From NCBI GenBank assembly GCA_963751345.1, contig CAVVUS010000024.1, positions 103,918 through 167,917 on the forward strand: DNA of 64,000 nucleotides. Direction: 5' to 3'. Positions 48,659 to 55,631 of the stretch are shown piece after piece. The stretch's first letter is position 1, and every line of letters starts with the position of its first letter. The notes below the pieces were generated by a model. That model worked only from the letters and a program-made list of their open reading frames with translations. It had not been told where the DNA came from and searched no databases. This stretch comes from an uncultured Chloroflexia bacterium (GTDB lineage: Bacteria > Chloroflexota > Anaerolineae > B4-G1 > SLSP01). The position numbers and the translations under genes were made by a program.

Positions 48659-49372
48659 CTAGCTATGCTGGGGCTGACGCTCGTGAAAACACCACAGCAA
48701 CCCACAACGCACGCTCACCGTCGCCACAGCATCTACCAGTCGGTTGCTCACGCCGCGGGCTGGACCAAAGGAGAGCGTTTCGTCGTGCAGGGGAAAGACG
48801 AGGCCATCCGTCGTCACGCCCTCTGCCTGCCCTCCAAGTGGAATGAGCGAGACACGATCCCCGGCACACCCGCGCACCTCCAGTGTTGCCTCCCCGCGAA
48901 TGAGAACAACCGTCCAAGCGCCATCGACCATCCACACTCGGCACCCGCCCCCACTCTCCTCTCGTCCCTCAACGGACGCGGGCTCGCCGGGTGACAGTGC
49001 GGGATGAGCCAGCAATAACAGGTTGGCCAAAGCCTGATCCGGCCGCCCACCAAACGCGCCGAGGACGACGACCTCTTCCACGCCCGGCTGTGCTACGGCC
49101 CACATCAGCGCAAGCTCCAGGTCGGTCTCGTCCTTATCGACCGGCGCACTATAGAAGGTCACACGCTCAGATTCCAGACGCCGAAGGAGATTGGGCGATA
49201 GAGAGTCGAGGTCACCGATCACGACCGAAGGGACAATGCCTGCATCCAGCGCGTGGAGCGACCCGCCATCGGCAGCAACGATGATGTCTCCTGGTCGTGT
49301 CCATGCGGCGGCCTCGCCGGCCGCGTCGGACATCACGCCATTGGCAAAGATCACGATGCGCATAGCCTCCAT
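48659..49372 (-). CDS. thiN: Thiamine pyrophosphokinase
   Basis: 'AADGG', 'IGDLDS', 'KDETDLELA', 'GAFGGRPDQ', 'RGVSN'. Confidence 0.92.
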   Translation of the reverse strand: MEAMRIVIFANGVMSDAAGEAAAWTRPGDIIVAADGGSLHALDAGIVPSVVIGDLDSLSPNLLRRLESERVTFYSAPVDKDETDLELALMWAVAQPGVEEVVVLGAFGGRPDQALANLLLLAHPALSPGEPASVEGREESGGGCRVWMVDGAWTVVLIRGEATLEVRGCAGDRVSLIPLGGQAEGVTTDGLVFPLHDETLSFGPARGVSNRLVDAVATVSVRCGLLWCFHERQPQHS

Positions 49373-49396: not shown

Positions 49397-49437
49397 AAAA
49401 ATCCCCGCCGGCCCAAGAGAGGGCTTTGCGGGGATTT
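49397..49437 (-). terminator. Riboswitch expression-platform terminator
   Basis: Minus strand aaatccccgc...gcggggattttt. Confidence 0.75.
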
Positions 49438-49449
49438 GGTGACATCGCT

Positions 49450-49538
49450 CGCACTCCCTACGCTGGCATGATCCAGATCAGGTTCTAGGGTCGGTGTGAT
49501 CAACACCCTCTCAGCCCATTCCTGGGCTCCCCTGGCTT
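49450..49538 (-). ncRNA. TPP riboswitch
   Basis: Minus strand ggggagccc..gggCTGAGA..gaccctagaaCCTGATctggatcaTGCCAGCGTAGGGA; upstream of thiamine genes. Confidence 0.95.
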
Positions 49539-49678
49539 CAGACATTGTAACTGGCTGTGTGAATGTACTGAAGAGATTATACCATCCGTCTGGCACCTGT
49601 AAAGGTGGCGGCACGTTCTTCATAATTGCCATGATCCAGGTATAATAGCCGATCAAGTCGGCCAAGGGGGAGTTTTCG

Positions 49679-51088
49679 ATGAGGACCATCGTCATGAAAT
49701 TCGGGGGTACCTCCGTGGGCAGCGCGCAAGCCATCGCCCAGGCGGCACTACTCGTGAAGCAGGAAGCGCCAAAATGGGATCACACCGTCGTCGTCGTCTC
49801 GGCTATGCGCGGGGTCACGGATGCCCTGATCGAGGGGGCCAGGACCGCGGCGCAGGGAGACGACCAGGTGTATCGCGGCCTGGTCTCCGACCTTCGGGTA
49901 AAGCACACGCTGGCAGTTGCAGAGTTGCTGATCGACACTGAGGCCAGAACTGCCTTACTCAAAGCTGTCGAGACCTACCTGGACGAGTTCTCGGCCTTCT
50001 GCCACAGTGTTCACGTTCTGGGTGAGGTCACCCCGAGGGCCATGGATGCCATCAGCTCTCTCGGCGAGCGAATGAATGCCCGTGTGGTAGCTGCACGACT
50101 GGAGGCTGAGGGGGTCGCCGCCAGACCGGTCGACGCCACCGATCTCATTGTGACCGATCGTCGTTTCCAGCAGGCGGCCCCGCTGATGGAGATCACCCGT
50201 GATCGTGTGACTCGCAATCTGCTGCCGCTCCTGGAAGAGGGCATCATACCCGTCGTCACGGGGTTTATGGGAGCGACAGAGGATGGCGTCATCACCACCC
50301 TTGGCCGCGGCGGGAGCGACTACAGTGCATCGATTCTCGGCGCCGCCCTGGGAGCGGATGAGGTCTGGACCTGGACCGACGTCGACGGCGTCTTGACAGC
50401 CGACCCTCGCATCGTCCCCGAAGCGCGGATTATACCGGAACTCTCCTACACGGAGGTCGCTGAACTGGCCTATTTCGGTGCCAAGGTACTCCACCCCAAG
50501 ACGATCCGTCCGGTGGTGGAGCAGGGAATTCCACTGTGGGTCAAGAACACATTCAACCCCACGTGTCCCGGGACGCGGATTGTCTCGGCACCTACCAGCA
50601 CGCCCGGCACCGTCAAGGCGGTCACGGCCATCCATGGCTTGAGCATGGTGACGGTCGAGGGGCGCGGTATGATGGGGGTCCCTGGCATCGCCGCGCGCAC
50701 TTTCGCCGCAGTCGCCAGCAGGGGCGCGAACGTCCTTATGATCTCGCAGGCATCCTCTGAACAGTCTATCTGCTTCGTGATCCCCACGATCGACGTTGCT
50801 CCCGTGATCTCTGCATTGGAGGCGGAGTTAGCCCTGGAGCTCTCCCGGCGCGACATTGACCACGTGTGGTCGATGGACAACGTCGTGATTGTCTCCGCTG
50901 TTGGATCCGGCATGCGCGGCACCCCAGGTGTAGCCGCCGGCCTTTTCAATGCATTGGCCGCGCAGCAGATCAACGTCATCGCTATTGCGCAAGGATCGTC
51001 AGAGTGTAGCATCTCGCTGGTTGTAGATGCCGAGCAGGCGACCCAGGCGGTTCGACAGATTCACCAAGAGGTAATCAACCATGGGTGA
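49679..51088 (+). CDS. lysC: Aspartate kinase
   Basis: 'MKFGGTSV', 'TLGRGGSDYSA', 'TDVDG', two ACT domains. Confidence 0.93.
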   Translation: MRTIVMKFGGTSVGSAQAIAQAALLVKQEAPKWDHTVVVVSAMRGVTDALIEGARTAAQGDDQVYRGLVSDLRVKHTLAVAELLIDTEARTALLKAVETYLDEFSAFCHSVHVLGEVTPRAMDAISSLGERMNARVVAARLEAEGVAARPVDATDLIVTDRRFQQAAPLMEITRDRVTRNLLPLLEEGIIPVVTGFMGATEDGVITTLGRGGSDYSASILGAALGADEVWTWTDVDGVLTADPRIVPEARIIPELSYTEVAELAYFGAKVLHPKTIRPVVEQGIPLWVKNTFNPTCPGTRIVSAPTSTPGTVKAVTAIHGLSMVTVEGRGMMGVPGIAARTFAAVASRGANVLMISQASSEQSICFVIPTIDVAPVISALEAELALELSRRDIDHVWSMDNVVIVSAVGSGMRGTPGVAAGLFNALAAQQINVIAIAQGSSECSISLVVDAEQATQAVRQIHQEVINHG

Positions 51089-52142
51089 GGGGAAGAGAAT
51101 ATCCGTTGGCGTTCTGGGAGCGACCGGTGCTGTGGGGCAACGTTTCGTCCAGCTCCTGGCAGCTCATCCGTGGTTTGAGATCACGGCGTTGGCTGCATCC
51201 GAGCGCAGCGCGGGCCGGCGGTATGCCGATGCATGTCAATGGGTCATCCCGGGCGATCCTCCGGCGGCGATTGGCGACCTGGAAGTCCAGCCACTGCAGC
51301 CCGACCTGCCGGCTGAGATCGTCTTCTCGGCACTGCCTTCCAGCGTAGCCCGCCAGATCGAGCCTGAGTTCGCCCGCGAGGGCTACCTCGTCTGCTCCAA
51401 TGCGTCGGCCTATCGCAACGTGGACGACGTGCCGCTGCTCATTCCGGAACTGAACGCCGGACACCTGGCCCTGATCGAGCGCCAGCGTGCCCAACGCGGA
51501 TGGCCAGGGCTGATCGTCACGAGCCCCAACTGCACCATCACGGGCGTGGCCGTGGCACTCAAGCCCCTGGATGATGCCTTCGGCGTCCGCAAAGTCTTCA
51601 TGGTCTCTATGCAGGCTGTTTCCGGGGCGGGATATCCTGGCGTTTCGGCACTCGATATCATGGGCAACGTCGTGCCCTACATTCCCGGCGAGGAGGAGAA
51701 GTTCCAGCAAGAGCTCCAGAAGCTGCTGGGCAGTGTCGAACAGGGGACGCTCGTTCCGGCCGACCTGGTCGTCAGTGCCCACGCAAACCGGGTACCGGTG
51801 ATTGACGGGCATACCGTCAGCATTTCTGTGGGGTTCGAACGGCGCCCCACGCCCGCTGAAGCGCTAGAGGTGCTAGCCAACTACGAGCCTCCCGAGGCGT
51901 GCACAGGGCTGTATAGCTCGCCCGACCGCATCATCTACGTCAGGACCGAGCCGGATCGCCCCCAACCGCGGCGCGACCGCGACGCAGCGGGCGGTATGGC
52001 GGTGAGTGTCGGGAGGGTTCGCCCCTGCCCCATCCTGGACCTGCGCCTCACGACGGTCACCCACAATACCCTGCGCGGGGCGGCTAGCGGCGCTGTGCTC
52101 AATGCGGAACTACTGGTCACACAGGGCTATACCAAGCCATAG
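51081..52142 (+). CDS. asd: Aspartate-semialdehyde dehydrogenase (archaeal/fungal type)
   Basis: 'GATGAVGQRF', 'SPNC', 'QAVSGAGYPG', 'RVPVIDGH', 'HNTLRGAA'. Confidence 0.95.
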   Translation: MGEGKRISVGVLGATGAVGQRFVQLLAAHPWFEITALAASERSAGRRYADACQWVIPGDPPAAIGDLEVQPLQPDLPAEIVFSALPSSVARQIEPEFAREGYLVCSNASAYRNVDDVPLLIPELNAGHLALIERQRAQRGWPGLIVTSPNCTITGVAVALKPLDDAFGVRKVFMVSMQAVSGAGYPGVSALDIMGNVVPYIPGEEEKFQQELQKLLGSVEQGTLVPADLVVSAHANRVPVIDGHTVSISVGFERRPTPAEALEVLANYEPPEACTGLYSSPDRIIYVRTEPDRPQPRRDRDAAGGMAVSVGRVRPCPILDLRLTTVTHNTLRGAASGAVLNAELLVTQGYTKP

Positions 52143-52163: not shown

Positions 52164-53321
52164 ATGCGAAGCTACGGACAAACCTCGGTATCTACCTTCC
52201 TTGACGACAGTATCGTCTACCGGAATCTGAAGCCTATGGATGATCGCCTGCCCGGGCTTCGGGAGATCGCGATTCGTCTGGATATCGACACTCGGCAGGT
52301 GCCGCGCAAAAGCGAGCCGGACTACGCCCGCGTGATGGTCGAGCTGCTCGTAGCTGCCAGGGCTCTTGATGCGGACAAGACAGCGGTGCAGCGTTTGGTC
52401 TACGTGGGTGACACACGCCTGAATGACGGCACAGCTTTTGCCAATCTGTGTAGCGCGGGCAAGTGGCCGGGCATCGCGTTCATCGGGTCTGAAAATCAGC
52501 AGCCAGCACAGAGGCAGATCATCGACCAGGGCGAGACAACGACCTATCTCGCCAATCGCTGGGCCCTGCTCAATGATTTCGATGACTACGCGGCCCACCA
52601 CGGCTTTCCCTTTGATGCGACCACCGCCGTGGTCCTGGATCTTGACAAGACCACCCTCGGTGCTCGCGGTCGCAACGACCGGGTCATCAACCAGGCACGC
52701 CTGACCGCGGTCAGAGAGACGGTCGAGGCACTGTTGGGCCCGGATTTCAACGCCGGGCAGTTCGAGGCCAATTACGACCTTTTCAACCAAACGGAGTTTC
52801 ACCCATTTACGACGGACAATCAGGACTACCTCGCCTATCTCTGCCTGATCCTGGGGAGTGATCTCTTCTCCGTGCCTGCCCTAGCTGATACCATCAGGGA
52901 AGGTCAACTGGCACAGTTCACGGACTTCCTGGACCAGGTTGAGGCCAGGGCGGGGGCGCTGCCGGAGCGACTGTGCGACCTTCACGATGACATCTACAGC
53001 CGGGTGAGAGCGGGTGACCCAACGCCTTTCAAGGCCTTCCGTTACAACGAGTATCTGGCTACAATCAGACGTATGGGAAGTCTGCCCGACGACGTCTGCG
53101 TGGACCGGATGCTTGCCGAGGAGATCGTGATCACGCAGGAAGTCCGGGACTTGGCGTCTAGGTGGAGAGAGCAGGGCGCCCTGCTGTTCGCATTGTCGGA
53201 TAAGCCCGATGAAGCGTCAGTTCCCACGGGGGAGTTAGCACAGGCCGGCTTCAAGGCGATCCACAGGATGCCGACACACGCCGTCGGGGCCGGCGCAGAT
53301 GCAGCCCCCTGCCGGGAATAG
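52164..53321 (+). CDS. Hypothetical HAD-superfamily protein, apparently circularly permuted
   Basis: Motifs in order III 'RKSEPDY', IV 'VYVGDTRLND', I 'VVLDLDKT', II 'FALSDKP'. Confidence 0.65.
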   Translation: MRSYGQTSVSTFLDDSIVYRNLKPMDDRLPGLREIAIRLDIDTRQVPRKSEPDYARVMVELLVAARALDADKTAVQRLVYVGDTRLNDGTAFANLCSAGKWPGIAFIGSENQQPAQRQIIDQGETTTYLANRWALLNDFDDYAAHHGFPFDATTAVVLDLDKTTLGARGRNDRVINQARLTAVRETVEALLGPDFNAGQFEANYDLFNQTEFHPFTTDNQDYLAYLCLILGSDLFSVPALADTIREGQLAQFTDFLDQVEARAGALPERLCDLHDDIYSRVRAGDPTPFKAFRYNEYLATIRRMGSLPDDVCVDRMLAEEIVITQEVRDLASRWREQGALLFALSDKPDEASVPTGELAQAGFKAIHRMPTHAVGAGADAAPCRE

Positions 53322-53324
53322 CAG

Positions 53325-53738
53325 ATGCTCCTCGGCCATATTGCCGTCTCACTTCTCGAGAGCCACTACCTGGATCTGGAGCTCAAGCCCACAATGCTCG
53401 GGGGGCTCTTCCCGGACATGCTTGACAAGAGCCTGTGCCAGGTCCTTCATATCACCCCGAGCGGGCGCATGTGGGGACACACGCTCCTCAGCTTTGCCCT
53501 GTCGACGGCCATCGTCAGAATTGCCAGCGGGAAGAGAGCCGCGCGCAGTTGGGCTCTAGGTTATGCGGGCCATCTCGTCGCGGATGTGAGGGGACAGGTA
53601 CCCCTCCTCTATCCCTTTGCACGTTACGATTTCGGACCATCGCCGGATCTCTCCACTATCCTCGAACGGTTCTTTGCGGACCGGAGGGAAGTTACACTGG
53701 AACTCGGGCTACTGGCGTGGGCGTTACTCACGGCTTAG
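53325..53738 (+). CDS. YdjM-like membrane metal-dependent hydrolase
   Basis: 'GH', 'PDMLDK', 'RMWGHTL', 'GHLVAD'. Confidence 0.75.
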   Translation: MLLGHIAVSLLESHYLDLELKPTMLGGLFPDMLDKSLCQVLHITPSGRMWGHTLLSFALSTAIVRIASGKRAARSWALGYAGHLVADVRGQVPLLYPFARYDFGPSPDLSTILERFFADRREVTLELGLLAWALLTA

Positions 53739-53770: not shown

Positions 53771-54263
53771 ATGCTAGATCGGACATCTGGCGGTCTCCGT
53801 GCTCGAACACCGATATGCGAAGGCTGCGTTCGTGCCGGTGGTGGCTGCTGCGATTCTTCCGGATGCCGTTGACAAGGTGTCGCACTATGTATTTGGGCAG
53901 AATGCGACAGGACGAATGTGGGGACACACACTCATCGCGGCGTTCCTGTCGTCACTGGTCGTCCTGGCCTTCTTCGGCACGCACAATGCATCCAGCTGGA
54001 TACTCGGGTATCTATCCCACCTGATCTGCGATATGGGAGGCGTGGTGCCCCTGCTTGCCCCTTTCGTAACGTATCAGTTCCCGCCGGCAGAGGATTTCCT
54101 GACCACGCTGTGGGCTGCACTCAGCCGCCCCCTGATCATCGCCGAACTGCTTCTCTCCTTCTGGGCCGTAATAGCAGTGCGGCGAGACATCAACACTGTA
54201 TACTCACGTGTGCGGCGTAGGTTTGGTATCACCGATTCGTCGGTCTCGGAATCTGGCCTGTAA
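53771..54263 (+). CDS. YdjM-like membrane metal-dependent hydrolase paralog, frameshift just after the start
   Basis: 'IGHLAVSVLE', 'PDAVDK', 'RMWGHTL', 'SHLICD'. Confidence 0.72.

Positions 54264-55631
<1,368 letters not shown>

What the first reader, a model, noticed from the sequence alone, without database searches (positions are those of the whole stretch)
52164..53321. Circularly permuted HAD enzyme inside lysC-asd-thrC: candidate non-orthologous homoserine kinase or phosphatase
Seen: the HAD motifs occur in order III (PRKSEPDY), IV (LVYVGDTRLND), I (AVVLDLDKTTL), a large helical cap, then II (EVRDLASRWREQGALLFALSDKP), instead of I-II-III-IV. The operon has aspartokinase, asd and thrC but no thrB or hom. 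Established: Pseudomonas ThrH, a HAD enzyme, replaces ThrB by phosphotransfer to homoserine. Inference: a permuted HAD family that may supply O-phosphohomoserine. It would be the second permuted enzyme in this window.
Basis: partly seen in the sequence, partly recalled or inferred. Interest (0 to 1): 0.72.

Follow-up and report, generated by a model that had tools for sequence, protein, structure and literature searches.

The report
Permuted HAD-fold candidate homoserine kinase
A conserved, unannotated enzyme of Anaerolineae-type bacteria carries the catalytic motifs of HAD phosphatases in a circularly rearranged order and sits in the threonine operon only in genomes that lack homoserine kinase, so it probably supplies that missing step.

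Summary
The ORF at 52164-53321 (+) is real: 385 aa, in a tight lysC-asd-X-ydjM-ydjM-thrC operon. It matches no Pfam or NCBIfam model, but belongs to a large family (over 3,000 database hits, all 'hypothetical'). The permuted motif order is confirmed. Motifs III/IV (K49, G82-D83...D88) precede motif I (D159-x-D161-x-T163), a 165-residue helical cap and motif II (S345), and all are 97-100% conserved in 95 sequences. Divergent members hit HAD Pfam models in permuted order. Rotating the family profile to start at residues 90-150 makes it collinear with a HAD_2 profile (E about 1e-6, against 6e-4 in native order). The AlphaFold model is very confident (pLDDT 97) and has no collinear match in the PDB.

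Function is inferred, not shown. thrC follows X in 46 of 60 related loci. Natural LysC-X fusions exist. In 201 genomes of the class, X (97) and thrB (57) never co-occur. Among 104 genomes with a window-like ThrC, 88 have X, 11 have thrB, none has both and 5 have neither.

The best reading (about 0.6) is a new, fourth non-orthologous homoserine kinase or phosphotransferase with an unknown phosphate donor. Rivals are another phosphatase role, or an apgM-like HomK filling the gap.

The parts
49619..49646 (+). promoter-like site (TTCATA-16-TATAAT) 30 nt before lysC
   Evidence: This is a consensus match only; 2 sites were found against 1.9 expected in shuffles, so it is weak.
49679..51088 (+). lysC, aspartate kinase (AA_kinase + 2 ACT)
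   Evidence: NF004938 532 bits against a cut-off of 528; PF00696 E 9e-53. Its end overlaps the asd start by 8 nt.
51081..52142 (+). asd, aspartate-semialdehyde dehydrogenase (archaeal/EA type)
   Evidence: TIGR00978 426 bits against a cut-off of 301.
52164..53321 (+). X: 385-aa circularly permuted HAD-superfamily protein, candidate homoserine phosphotransferase/kinase
   Evidence: GAGGAG lies 8-13 nt before the ATG, and homologues start at the same position.
52302..52325 (+). PRKSEPDY, residues 47-54: candidate HAD motif III (K49), just before helix 52-67
   Evidence: P47, R48 and K49 are kept in 97-99% of 95 sequences. The position before the helix that leads into the motif IV strand comes from the model. 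It is not aligned to the template's motif III Lys.
52395..52427 (+). LVYVGDTRLND, residues 78-88: HAD motif IV (G82-D83...D88) at the end of strand 77-82
   Evidence: Aligned to the template's G174-D175 and D179. G82 is kept in 100%, D83 in 98% and D88 in 99% of rows.
52626..52658 (+). AVVLDLDKTTL, residues 155-165: HAD motif I (D159 nucleophile, D161 acid/base, T163) at the end of strand 154-159
   Evidence: Aligned to the template's D18, D20 and T22. Kept in 97-99% of rows.
52677..53171 (+). all-helical cap, residues 172-336, inserted between motifs I and II, with near-invariant R179, H213, T216, D218, N219, D221, T287, K290, R293, E296, E326
   Evidence: Helices are predicted at pLDDT about 98. 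No convincing structural match was found for this part.
53181..53207 (+). LLFALSDKP, residues 340-348: HAD motif II (S345) at the end of strand 340-344
   Evidence: S345 aligns to the template's S117. S345 is kept in 98%, D346 in 100% and P348 in 100% of rows.
53325..53738 (+). YdjM-like small membrane protein 1
   Evidence: PF04307 32.3 bits against a cut-off of 29. A ydjM-like gene lies between X and thrC in 24 of 60 related loci. Its role in the operon is unknown.
53799..54263 (+). YdjM-like small membrane protein 2
   Evidence: PF04307 38.9 bits against a cut-off of 29.
54306..55631 (+). thrC, threonine synthase with N-terminal Cys4 ribbon
   Evidence: TIGR00260 237.7 bits against a cut-off of 167.1. 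Orthologues at 60-98% identity follow X in related loci.

Best explanation
X is a circularly permuted member of the HAD (haloacid-dehalogenase-like) phosphotransferase superfamily. It replaces homoserine kinase in Anaerolineae-type Chloroflexota.

Proposed mechanism:
- D159 is phosphorylated by a donor to give an aspartyl-phosphate enzyme (Mg2+ held by D159, D161, D83/D88).
- The large, highly conserved helical cap closes over L-homoserine.
- D161 deprotonates the gamma-hydroxyl of homoserine.
- The phosphoryl group is passed on to give O-phospho-L-homoserine, the substrate of the ThrC encoded downstream.

Shown here: the family, the catalytic motifs and their permuted order, operon linkage, LysC fusions, and mutual exclusion with thrB.

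Inferred: the acceptor (homoserine), transfer rather than hydrolysis, and the donor (ATP, phosphoserine as in ThrH, or an acyl phosphate).
For: HAD catalytic set in permuted order:
- Motifs are kept in 97-100% of 95 sequences.
- Pfam partial hits occur in permuted order in 3 divergent members. Overall, 3 of 72 members hit PF00702, 3 hit DUF2608 and 2 hit PF12710.
- The rotation scan peaks at cuts 90-150 with E about 1e-6. The reversed-profile control never did better than E 0.28.
- The model (pLDDT 97, pTM 0.93) has alternating strand-helix elements that place each motif at a strand end.
- The Rossmann-like core spans residues 45-160 plus 340-349 in the best structural rows, and a HAD phosphatase (6iah_A) aligns model 154-373 to its residues 1-165 (Z 5.9-6.6).

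Pathway link:
- The genes form one tight operon, lysC-asd-X-(ydjM x2)-thrC.
- In 80 loci from other species, thrC is adjacent in 46 of 60, asd in 48 of 64 and lysC in 42 of 53. At least one is adjacent in 37 of the 43 loci with both flanks available.
- A LysC-X fusion cluster has 6 members from three sources.

Missing step:
- The own genome has hom and thrC but none of the four known homoserine-kinase types over cut-off.
- Class sample of 201 genomes: X in 97, thrB over cut-off in 57, overlap 0.
- Of 104 genomes with a window-like ThrC, 88 have X, 11 have thrB, 0 have both and 5 have neither.
- Three family-level groups (f70, f75, f79) hold both kinds of genome, never in one genome. In f75 the same ThrC orthologue (about 72% identity) goes with thrB in 5 genomes and with X in 1.
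- 21 of 97 X-holders also lack any apgM/HomK-like gene.
- Five high-quality X-holders, two of them single-contig, lack thrB, thrB_alt, ThrH and apgM.

Precedent: the HAD enzyme ThrH makes phosphohomoserine by phosphotransfer (passages). thrB is still an open gap in 16 of 208 prototrophs.
Against: - There are no biochemical or genetic data. Most HAD enzymes are plain phosphatases.
- thrB is also missing from 47 of 104 X-less genomes of the class, so its absence is common there. Of 5 such genomes checked, 4 also lacked an Asd match to the window's protein and all 5 had only about 30% identical ThrC-like paralogues, so they may be auxotrophs.
- Five genomes have a window-like ThrC but neither X nor thrB: G301, G305, G371, G374, G407.
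- One X-holder, G424, also has a TIGR02535 HomK over cut-off.
- The own genome has two apgM-class genes, and an apgM-class protein of Dehalococcoides, in the same phylum, is a proven HomK.
- X lies outside any thr context in 6 of 43 loci.
- The rotation-scan peak was not reproduced with two small HAD sub-alignments of 6 and 5 sequences.
- Motif III is not aligned, and 3D convergence of the motifs was not measured.
- Related genomes are not independent, so the counts overstate the number of independent events.
Confidence: 0.6

Rival explanations
1. X is an ordinary HAD phosphatase (a hydrolase) acting on a phosphoester near this pathway. Candidates are phosphoserine, or O-phosphohomoserine / aspartyl phosphate as a flux valve. 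It makes no phosphohomoserine.
For: - The full phosphatase-type motif set, including the D+2 Asp, is present.
- Most characterised HADs are phosphatases (established knowledge).
- Canonical SerB is not found in the own genome (best hit 29 bits), and is over cut-off in only 1 of 201 genomes of the class. So a phosphoserine phosphatase of unknown family must exist.
- One source labelled a family member 'FMN phosphatase YigB'.
Against: - SerB is missing from X-less genomes just as much, so X does not track that gap, whereas it tracks the thrB gap exactly.
- A hydrolase of pathway intermediates inside the biosynthetic operon, and fused to LysC, would be futile.
- About 25 near-invariant residues, many of them in a closed 165-residue cap, suggest exclusion of water and a two-substrate site. 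This is inference.
Confidence: 0.15
2. The homoserine-kinase step in X-holders is carried out by another protein: an apgM-class HomK as in Dehalococcoides, or an unrecognised kinase. X has an unrelated job and merely travels with the operon.
For: - GapMind 2026 shows that a TIGR00306-class protein of D. mccartyi rescues E. coli thrB::kan (passages).
- The own genome has two such genes.
- 76 of 97 X-holders have at least one.
- In family f75, thrC is directly followed by an apgM-like gene in 5 genomes.
- G424 has X and a TIGR02535 HomK together.
- X sits beside dCTP deaminase-like genes instead of thr genes in 4 loci.
Against: - apgM-like genes are as frequent in thrB-holders (43 of 57) as in X-holders (76 of 97), mostly in a single copy, so they do not behave as a thrB substitute.
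- 21 X-holders, including the closed genomes G343 and G414, have neither thrB nor an apgM-like gene.
- The own apgM copies lie next to recJ and an oxidative-stress gene, not thr genes.
- Hitch-hiking does not explain the strict exclusion with thrB across three mixed families, or the LysC-X fusions.
Confidence: 0.15
3. X phosphorylates a different acceptor related to threonine, for example L-threonine to give threonine phosphate for cobamide synthesis, or acts on another amino-acid alcohol.
For: It is adjacent to thrC and has a conserved charged cap suited to an amino acid. The known threonine kinase PduX is a ThrB-like GHMP kinase (recalled, not tested here).
Against: This leaves O-phosphohomoserine supply unexplained in genomes that keep ThrC but have no known homoserine kinase. 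No cobamide genes were seen next to X in the loci examined.
Confidence: 0.04

Closest known systems
ThrH of Pseudomonas aeruginosa (phosphoserine:homoserine phosphotransferase / phosphoserine phosphatase; HAD superfamily; NCBIfam TIGR02137)
   Same: It is a HAD aspartyl-phosphate enzyme that forms O-phosphohomoserine by phosphotransfer rather than as an ATP kinase, and it can stand in for ThrB (passages read). This is the mechanism proposed for X.
   Different: X gives no match to TIGR02137 (none in the genome). Its motifs are in the order III-IV-I-cap-II. It is 385 aa with a 165-residue cap. ThrH complements only when over-expressed, whereas X occurs only where thrB is not found.
HomK / ThrB2 (BT2402, TIGR02535; and the apgM-class DET_RS08350 of Dehalococcoides)
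   Same: It is a non-orthologous replacement of ThrB, found through operon linkage with thrC and complementary occurrence with thrB. It probably uses a donor other than ATP.
   Different: It has an unrelated fold (cofactor-independent phosphoglycerate-mutase / metalloenzyme). It is experimentally confirmed, and X is not. TIGR02535 over cut-off was found in 1 of 201 genomes of this class.
ThrB, GHMP-family homoserine kinase (TIGR00191)
   Same: The proposed product and pathway position are the same. It pairs with the same ThrC orthologues in sister lineages (f75).
   Different: It has an unrelated fold and is an ATP-dependent direct kinase. It never occurs in the same genome as X in the samples searched (0 of 97, 0 of 20).
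Canonical HAD phosphatases with C1 caps (Pfam PF00702, PF13419 HAD_2; e.g. phosphatase Tt82, PDB 6iah)
   Same: Motifs I, II and IV align residue for residue after rotation. 6iah_A aligns its first 165 residues with model residues 154-373 (Z 5.9-6.6, 149-150 aligned).
   Different: The order of the halves is swapped. The cap is about twice as long and has no convincing structural match. The query itself hits no Pfam HAD model.

Membership tests
HAD superfamily | Motif I DxDx[TV] at the end of a core strand | tested here: met
   D159-L-D161-K-T163 follows strand 154-159. It aligns to the template's D18, D20 and T22 and is kept in 97-99% of 95 sequences.
HAD superfamily | Motif II Ser/Thr at the end of strand S2 | tested here: met
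   S345 follows strand 340-344. It aligns to the template's S117 and is kept in 98% of rows.
HAD superfamily | Motif III Lys/Arg at the start of the helix before strand S4 | tested here: inconclusive
   K49 is kept in 97% of rows and lies before helix 52-67, which leads into strand 77-82. In the profile alignment it falls in a gap. K347 is an alternative candidate.
HAD superfamily | Motif IV (G/S)(D/S)x3-4(D/E) at the end of strand S4 | tested here: met
   G82-D83-T-R-L-N-D88 aligns to the template's G174-D175...D179. These residues are kept in 98-100% of rows.
HAD superfamily | Motifs collinear in the order I-II-III-IV | tested here: not met
   The order is III-IV-I-cap-II. A collinear profile match appears only after rotation at residues 90-150. 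This is why it is filed as a permuted variant, not a typical member.
HAD superfamily | Match to a curated HAD profile | tested here: inconclusive
   P0001 has no hit at E<=1. Family member P0224 scores 26.6 bits against the PF00702 cut-off of 26.4. Only 3 of 72 members hit PF00702 at E<=10.
HAD superfamily | Rossmannoid core with squiggle and flap, motif residues around one Mg2+/phosphate site | not testable with these tools
Sequential aligners give only Z 5.9-7.7, and Foldseek gives nothing at E<=0.001.
ThrH (TIGR02137) | Score over the family cut-off (223.4 bits) | tested here: not met
   P0001 has no hit at E<=1, and the genome has none at E<=0.001. None of the 14 control genomes scored over the cut-off either, so the search had no positive control.
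ThrB GHMP homoserine kinase (TIGR00191) | Score over the cut-off (168.25 bits) | tested here: not met
   P0001 has no hit. The only genome hit (23.8 bits) is a mevalonate kinase.
HomK/ThrB2 (TIGR02535) | Score over the cut-off (446.3 bits); phosphoglycerate-mutase-like metalloenzyme fold | tested here: not met
   P0001 has no hit. The genome's apgM-class genes score 160-163 bits.
SerB phosphoserine phosphatase (TIGR00338) | Score over the cut-off (144.15 bits) | tested here: not met
   P0001 has no hit.
Functional class: homoserine kinase / phosphotransferase | Forms O-phospho-L-homoserine; rescues a thrB mutant | not testable with these tools
   This needs complementation and enzyme assays. 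Only genomic evidence is available here.

The most novel reading that the evidence does not exclude
X is not an ATP kinase. It takes its phosphoryl group from beta-aspartyl phosphate, the labile product of the LysC encoded two genes upstream, which in some Anaerolineaceae is fused to X. Aspartokinase would then supply both the carbon skeleton and the phosphate that activates homoserine. This would be a self-priming threonine pathway run by a naturally circularly permuted HAD enzyme, a topology I found no report of.
Probability: 0.12. Interest if true: 0.92.

Novelty: new variant of a known kind. Interest (0 to 1): 0.78.

Why it matters
Homoserine kinase is one of the four steps that still account for most unexplained gaps in amino-acid biosynthesis of proven prototrophs. 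It is missing in 16 of 208 genomes (GapMind 2026, passage read).

A fourth non-orthologous family would close that gap for a large, environmentally dominant and poorly cultured group: Anaerolineae and allied Chloroflexota. X was found in 97 of 201 sampled genomes of the class. Those genomes would no longer be scored as threonine auxotrophs in metabolic models.

It would also be a natural circular permutant of the HAD fold, with a new, highly conserved cap. That is useful for understanding how this superfamily evolves and how phosphotransfer is favoured over hydrolysis.

The hypothesis is directly testable with a thrB complementation and a coupled ThrC assay.

Tried and rejected
- Foldseek against the PDB gave no match at E<=0.001 with either model.
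- VIA-align against 48,161 chains gave only generic Rossmann-like rows at Z up to 7.7, with the HAD phosphatase 6iah_A at Z 5.9-6.6. Sequential aligners cannot test a permutation.
- phmmer and profile searches of PDB sequences found nothing relevant.
- The rotation scan in local hhalign mode gave no gain, because only the motif IV segment is picked at every cut.
- The global-mode scan was repeated with two small HAD sub-alignments (6 and 5 sequences). It did not reproduce the peak: best Prob 1.9% and 14%, at other cuts.
- A second HAD family (PF12710) was sought as a template. Only 1 of 21 relatives' genomes had a member, so no template was built.
- Mean-field DCA on 267 sequences (Neff 172) was dominated by indel columns. 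Only the S2-S3 pairing stood out, and the S1-S4 and S1-S2 blocks were at the 92nd-94th percentile, so it was inconclusive.
- ESM Atlas, whole protein: own clusters scored 0.97-0.98 and HAD_2 clusters only 0.77-0.78, a lead only. Residues 147-385 against named clusters gave no usable hit.
- The SerB correlation was uninformative, because SerB is over cut-off in only 1 of 201 genomes whether or not X is present.
- Expression: no RNA holder was listed for the operon.
- I considered that the 698-aa hom ORF carries a fused kinase. Its C-terminal half is low-complexity and has no family match.
Full report
**What is there.** Window 52164-53321 (+) is an uninterrupted ORF of 385 codons. It has a GAGGAG Shine-Dalgarno 8-13 nt before the ATG. 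It is the third gene of a tightly packed same-strand set:
- lysC, 49679-51088: aspartate kinase with two ACT domains. Its end overlaps the asd start.
- asd, 51081-52142.
- X, 52164-53321.
- Two small YdjM-like membrane proteins, 53325-53738 and 53799-54263.
- thrC, 54306-55631.

A promoter-like site lies 30 nt before lysC. It is a weak consensus match. X itself matches no Pfam-A and no NCBIfam model, even at E<=1. It matches no PDB sequence either.

**The family.** X is not an orphan.
- The word-indexed search found 3,144 proteins with E<=0.001 among the 8,000 candidates scored.
- The best 120 are 58-99% identical over the full length, carry no precomputed Pfam domain, and where named are 'hypothetical protein' of Anaerolineae/Chloroflexota MAGs.
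- The exhaustive search of 50%-identity representatives found 406 clusters at E<=0.001.
- In an alignment of 95 members reaching down to 26% identity, about 25 residues are kept in at least 93% of rows. They include R20, P47-R48-K49, G82-D83, D88, D159, D161, T163, R170, R179, T216, D218-N219, D221, T287, R293, E296, E326, S345-D346 and P348.
- This degree of conservation is that of a specific enzyme with an extensive active site.

Four lines of evidence say they are genuine HAD motifs in a rotated order.

1. Pfam hits in divergent members. The query hits no HAD model, but some divergent family members do, and in a telling way.
   - P0224 matches PF00702 just over its curated cut-off (26.6 against 26.4 bits). 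Protein residues 145-353 lie on profile positions 3-142 of 191.
   - P0264 matches the last part of HAD_2 (profile 139-171 of 178) with its residues 54-86, and the middle of PF00702 (44-127) with its residues 247-327.
   - P0254 matches the C-terminal ends of DUF2608 and PF12710 with residues 55-106.
   - Over all 72 members scanned, 3 hit PF00702, 3 hit DUF2608 and 2 hit PF12710. The signal is thin but consistently HAD.

2. Profile-profile comparison. I compared the family with an alignment of 30 HAD_2 proteins taken from relatives' genomes. In native order this gave two separate local matches:
   - Query 15-107 on template 83-195 (P 0.0018), with GDT on the template's motif IV.
   - Query 147-347 on template 6-196 (P 0.01), with DLDKT on DLDGT.

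3. Rotation scan. I rotated the family profile at every tenth residue and aligned each rotation end to end with the HAD_2 profile.
   - Cuts after residues 90-150 gave a collinear match over 181-223 columns (Prob 56-85%, E 8e-7 to 2e-5).
   - Native order gave Prob 12%, E 6e-4. All other cuts gave Prob 0.4-20%.
   - A reversed-profile control never did better than E 0.28.
   - In the rotated alignment D159/D161/T163 fall on the template's motif I, S345 on motif II, and G82-D83 and D88 on motif IV. K49 falls in a gap, so its assignment as motif III rests on position and conservation only.
   - Against this, the peak was not reproduced with two very small sub-alignments of 6 and 5 sequences, and local-mode scanning shows no gain.

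4. Structure prediction. AlphaFold2 with the 95-sequence alignment gives a very confident model (pLDDT 97.0, pTM 0.93). Its elements run as follows:
   - Helix 52-67, strand 77-82 (ending in GD), helix, strand 103-108, a hairpin, helix.
   - Strand 154-159 (ending in DLD), then nine or more helices (172-336).
   - Strand 340-344 (ending in S345), a short helix, then strand 371-375.
   - This is the HAD order S4-S5 ... S1-cap-S2-S3.

Structural search of the model:
- Sequential aligners find no collinear counterpart. Foldseek finds nothing at E<=0.001.
- The best VIA rows (Z up to 7.7) are generic Rossmann-like domains that cover model residues about 45-160 plus 340-349.
- A HAD phosphatase (6iah_A) aligns its residues 1-165 with model residues 154-373, at Z 5.9-6.6.

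I could not measure whether the motif residues meet in space, because coordinates and permutation-aware aligners are not available here. I found no report of a natural circularly permuted HAD enzyme. The searches were made, with the two candidate passages read.

**Link to threonine synthesis.** I took 80 loci from other species.
- A ThrC orthologue (at least 60% identical) starts within 2.5 kb downstream on the same strand in 46 of the 60 loci with enough flank.
- asd lies upstream in 48 of 64 loci, and lysC in 42 of 53.
- At least one of the three is adjacent in 37 of the 43 loci with both flanks available.
- The ydjM-like genes intervene in 24 of 60 loci.
- In the six loci with none of the three, X mostly follows a dCTP-deaminase-like gene.
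- A cluster of six proteins from JGI, NCBI (Anaerolineaceae MAGs) and Logan fuses a complete aspartate kinase to X. The fused and N-terminally extended forms keep all key residues.

**The missing step in the own genome.** The genome is 93% complete.
- It has hom on another contig.
- It has two ThrC-family genes. The second sits with a carbamoyltransferase, a carbamate kinase and a CysK-like gene, not with thr genes.
- No GHMP ThrB was found. The only weak hit is a mevalonate kinase beside isopentenyl-phosphate kinase.
- No APH-type thrB_alt over cut-off, no ThrH, and no TIGR02535 over cut-off.
- It does have two apgM-class genes, both over the cut-off of the phosphoglycerate-mutase equivalog NF003160.

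**Phyletic pattern, phylum sample (251 genomes).** X occurs in 20 and thrB (E<=1e-10) in 188. None of the 20 X-holders has thrB. The thrB tally includes four genomes flagged as unpublished: G227, G038, G145 and G173. None of them is an X-holder.

**Phyletic pattern, class sample (201 genomes).**

| Feature | Count |
|---|---|
| X | 97 |
| thrB over cut-off | 57 |
| Both X and thrB over cut-off | 0 |
| TIGR00260 ThrC at E<=1e-40 | 195 |
| ThrC like the window's (E<=1e-100) | 104 |
| ...of those: X / thrB / both / neither | 88 / 11 / 0 / 5 |

- The one genome with X and a thrB-model hit scores 44 bits, far below the 168-bit cut-off.
- Both ThrC subtypes (60-84% and 43-49% identical to the window's) pair with X in some lineages and with thrB in others.
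- Three family-level groups (f70, f75, f79) contain both solutions. In f75 the same ThrC orthologue goes with thrB in five genomes and with X in one.
- This is the signature of non-orthologous gene displacement.

**Caveats on the pattern.**
- Related genomes are not independent.
- 47 X-less genomes also lack thrB. I checked five of these, the closest relatives of the window's genome. Four have no match to the window's Asd, and all five have only about 30% identical ThrC-like paralogues, so they may be auxotrophs.
- In the five genomes with a window-like ThrC but neither gene, thrC lies in leu or other contexts.

**The main rival.** GapMind 2026 (bioRxiv 10.1101/2024.10.14.618325; passages read) reports the following:
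- BT2402/TIGR02535 ('HomK') rescues E. coli thrB::kan.
- So does a divergent, apgM-classed protein of Dehalococcoides mccartyi, in the same phylum.
- thrB remains missing in 16 of 208 prototrophs.

One of the two apgM-class genes of this genome could therefore be the real homoserine phosphotransferase. I tested this phyletically.
- apgM-class genes occur in 76 of 97 X-holders and 43 of 57 thrB-holders, nearly always in a single copy. Two copies occur in 3, 3 and 3 genomes of the X, thrB and other groups.
- They therefore do not track the thrB gap.
- 21 X-holders have neither thrB nor an apgM-class gene.
- Five high-quality genomes among these, two of them single-contig, also lack thrB_alt over cut-off and ThrH.
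- TIGR02535 over cut-off occurs in 1 of 201 genomes, G424, which also has X.
- The rival is therefore weakened but not excluded for this particular genome.

**Mechanism.** The catalytic set is that of phosphoaspartyl transferases: nucleophile D159, D+2 acid/base D161, T163, S345, a Lys, and the acidic motif IV. ThrH shows that such an enzyme can make O-phosphohomoserine by phosphotransfer from phosphoserine. I therefore propose a ping-pong transfer through phospho-D159 to the gamma-hydroxyl of homoserine, under a closed and highly conserved cap.

The donor is open.
- Canonical SerB is almost unseen in the whole class (1 of 201). That neither supports nor excludes phosphoserine.
- The LysC fusions make beta-aspartyl phosphate an attractive but untested donor.

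**Verdict.** X is a new family without a curated model. It is a permuted variant of the HAD fold and a candidate fourth type of homoserine kinase. I found nothing in print on it: searches, and no mention of Chloroflexota or Anaerolineae in GapMind 2026. That preprint's figure and supplements, which list the genomes lacking thrB, could not be seen.

Noticed in passing
window 49437-49543 (-): A TPP riboswitch (RF00059, 65.2 bits against a gathering score of 54.3). It is divergent from lysC and presumably controls the minus-strand genes ending near 49372. A strong promoter-like site (11 of 12 matches) lies at 49603-49576 (-).
   Followed up: no
window 53325-53738 and 53799-54263 (+): Two paralogous YdjM-like small membrane proteins sit between X and thrC. 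A ydjM-like gene occupies this position in 24 of 60 related loci. There is no obvious role in threonine synthesis.
   Followed up: partly
P0128 and its cluster (P0278-P0282): Natural fusion of a complete aspartate kinase (AA_kinase + ACT) to X, seen in 6 cluster members from JGI, NCBI Anaerolineaceae MAGs and Logan.
   Followed up: partly
P0232 (816 aa), P0242, P0249, P0250, P0260 (607-620 aa); P0174 (528 aa): Distant family members carry N-terminal extensions of about 230-430 residues with no Pfam match, yet keep all catalytic and cap residues. P0174 has a C-terminal prokaryotic JAB domain.
   Followed up: partly
G000:C18:222000-237000 (L097): A second ThrC-family gene (PRK08197 303.6 bits) lies in a cluster with a GntR regulator, an ornithine/YgeW-like carbamoyltransferase, a carbamate kinase, a glycoside-hydrolase-like protein and a CysK-like PLP enzyme. 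This looks like a catabolic or specialised pathway, not threonine synthesis.
   Followed up: partly
G000:C32 (L098:5253-7349, -): The homoserine dehydrogenase ORF runs on for about 350 extra residues of Arg/Gly/Pro/Ala-rich low-complexity sequence with no family match. This may be a lost stop, a frameshift or an assembly error.
   Followed up: partly
G329:C2, G369:C4, G435:C24, G459:C355, G404:C99 (family f75): thrC is directly followed by an apgM-class gene in five genomes that also have thrB. The one f75 genome with X (G288) lacks both. The apgM-class gene may be a HomK there.
   Followed up: partly
class sample of 201 genomes: Canonical SerB (TIGR00338 over cut-off) was found in only 1 of 201 genomes, so the phosphoserine phosphatase of this class is also unidentified.
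   Followed up: no
L035, L045, L080, L083 (and L086, L088, L090): A minority context for X: a dCTP-deaminase-like gene lies upstream, and a 350-aa PLP-dependent (PALP) enzyme, 29-39% identical to ThrC, lies convergent downstream.
   Followed up: partly
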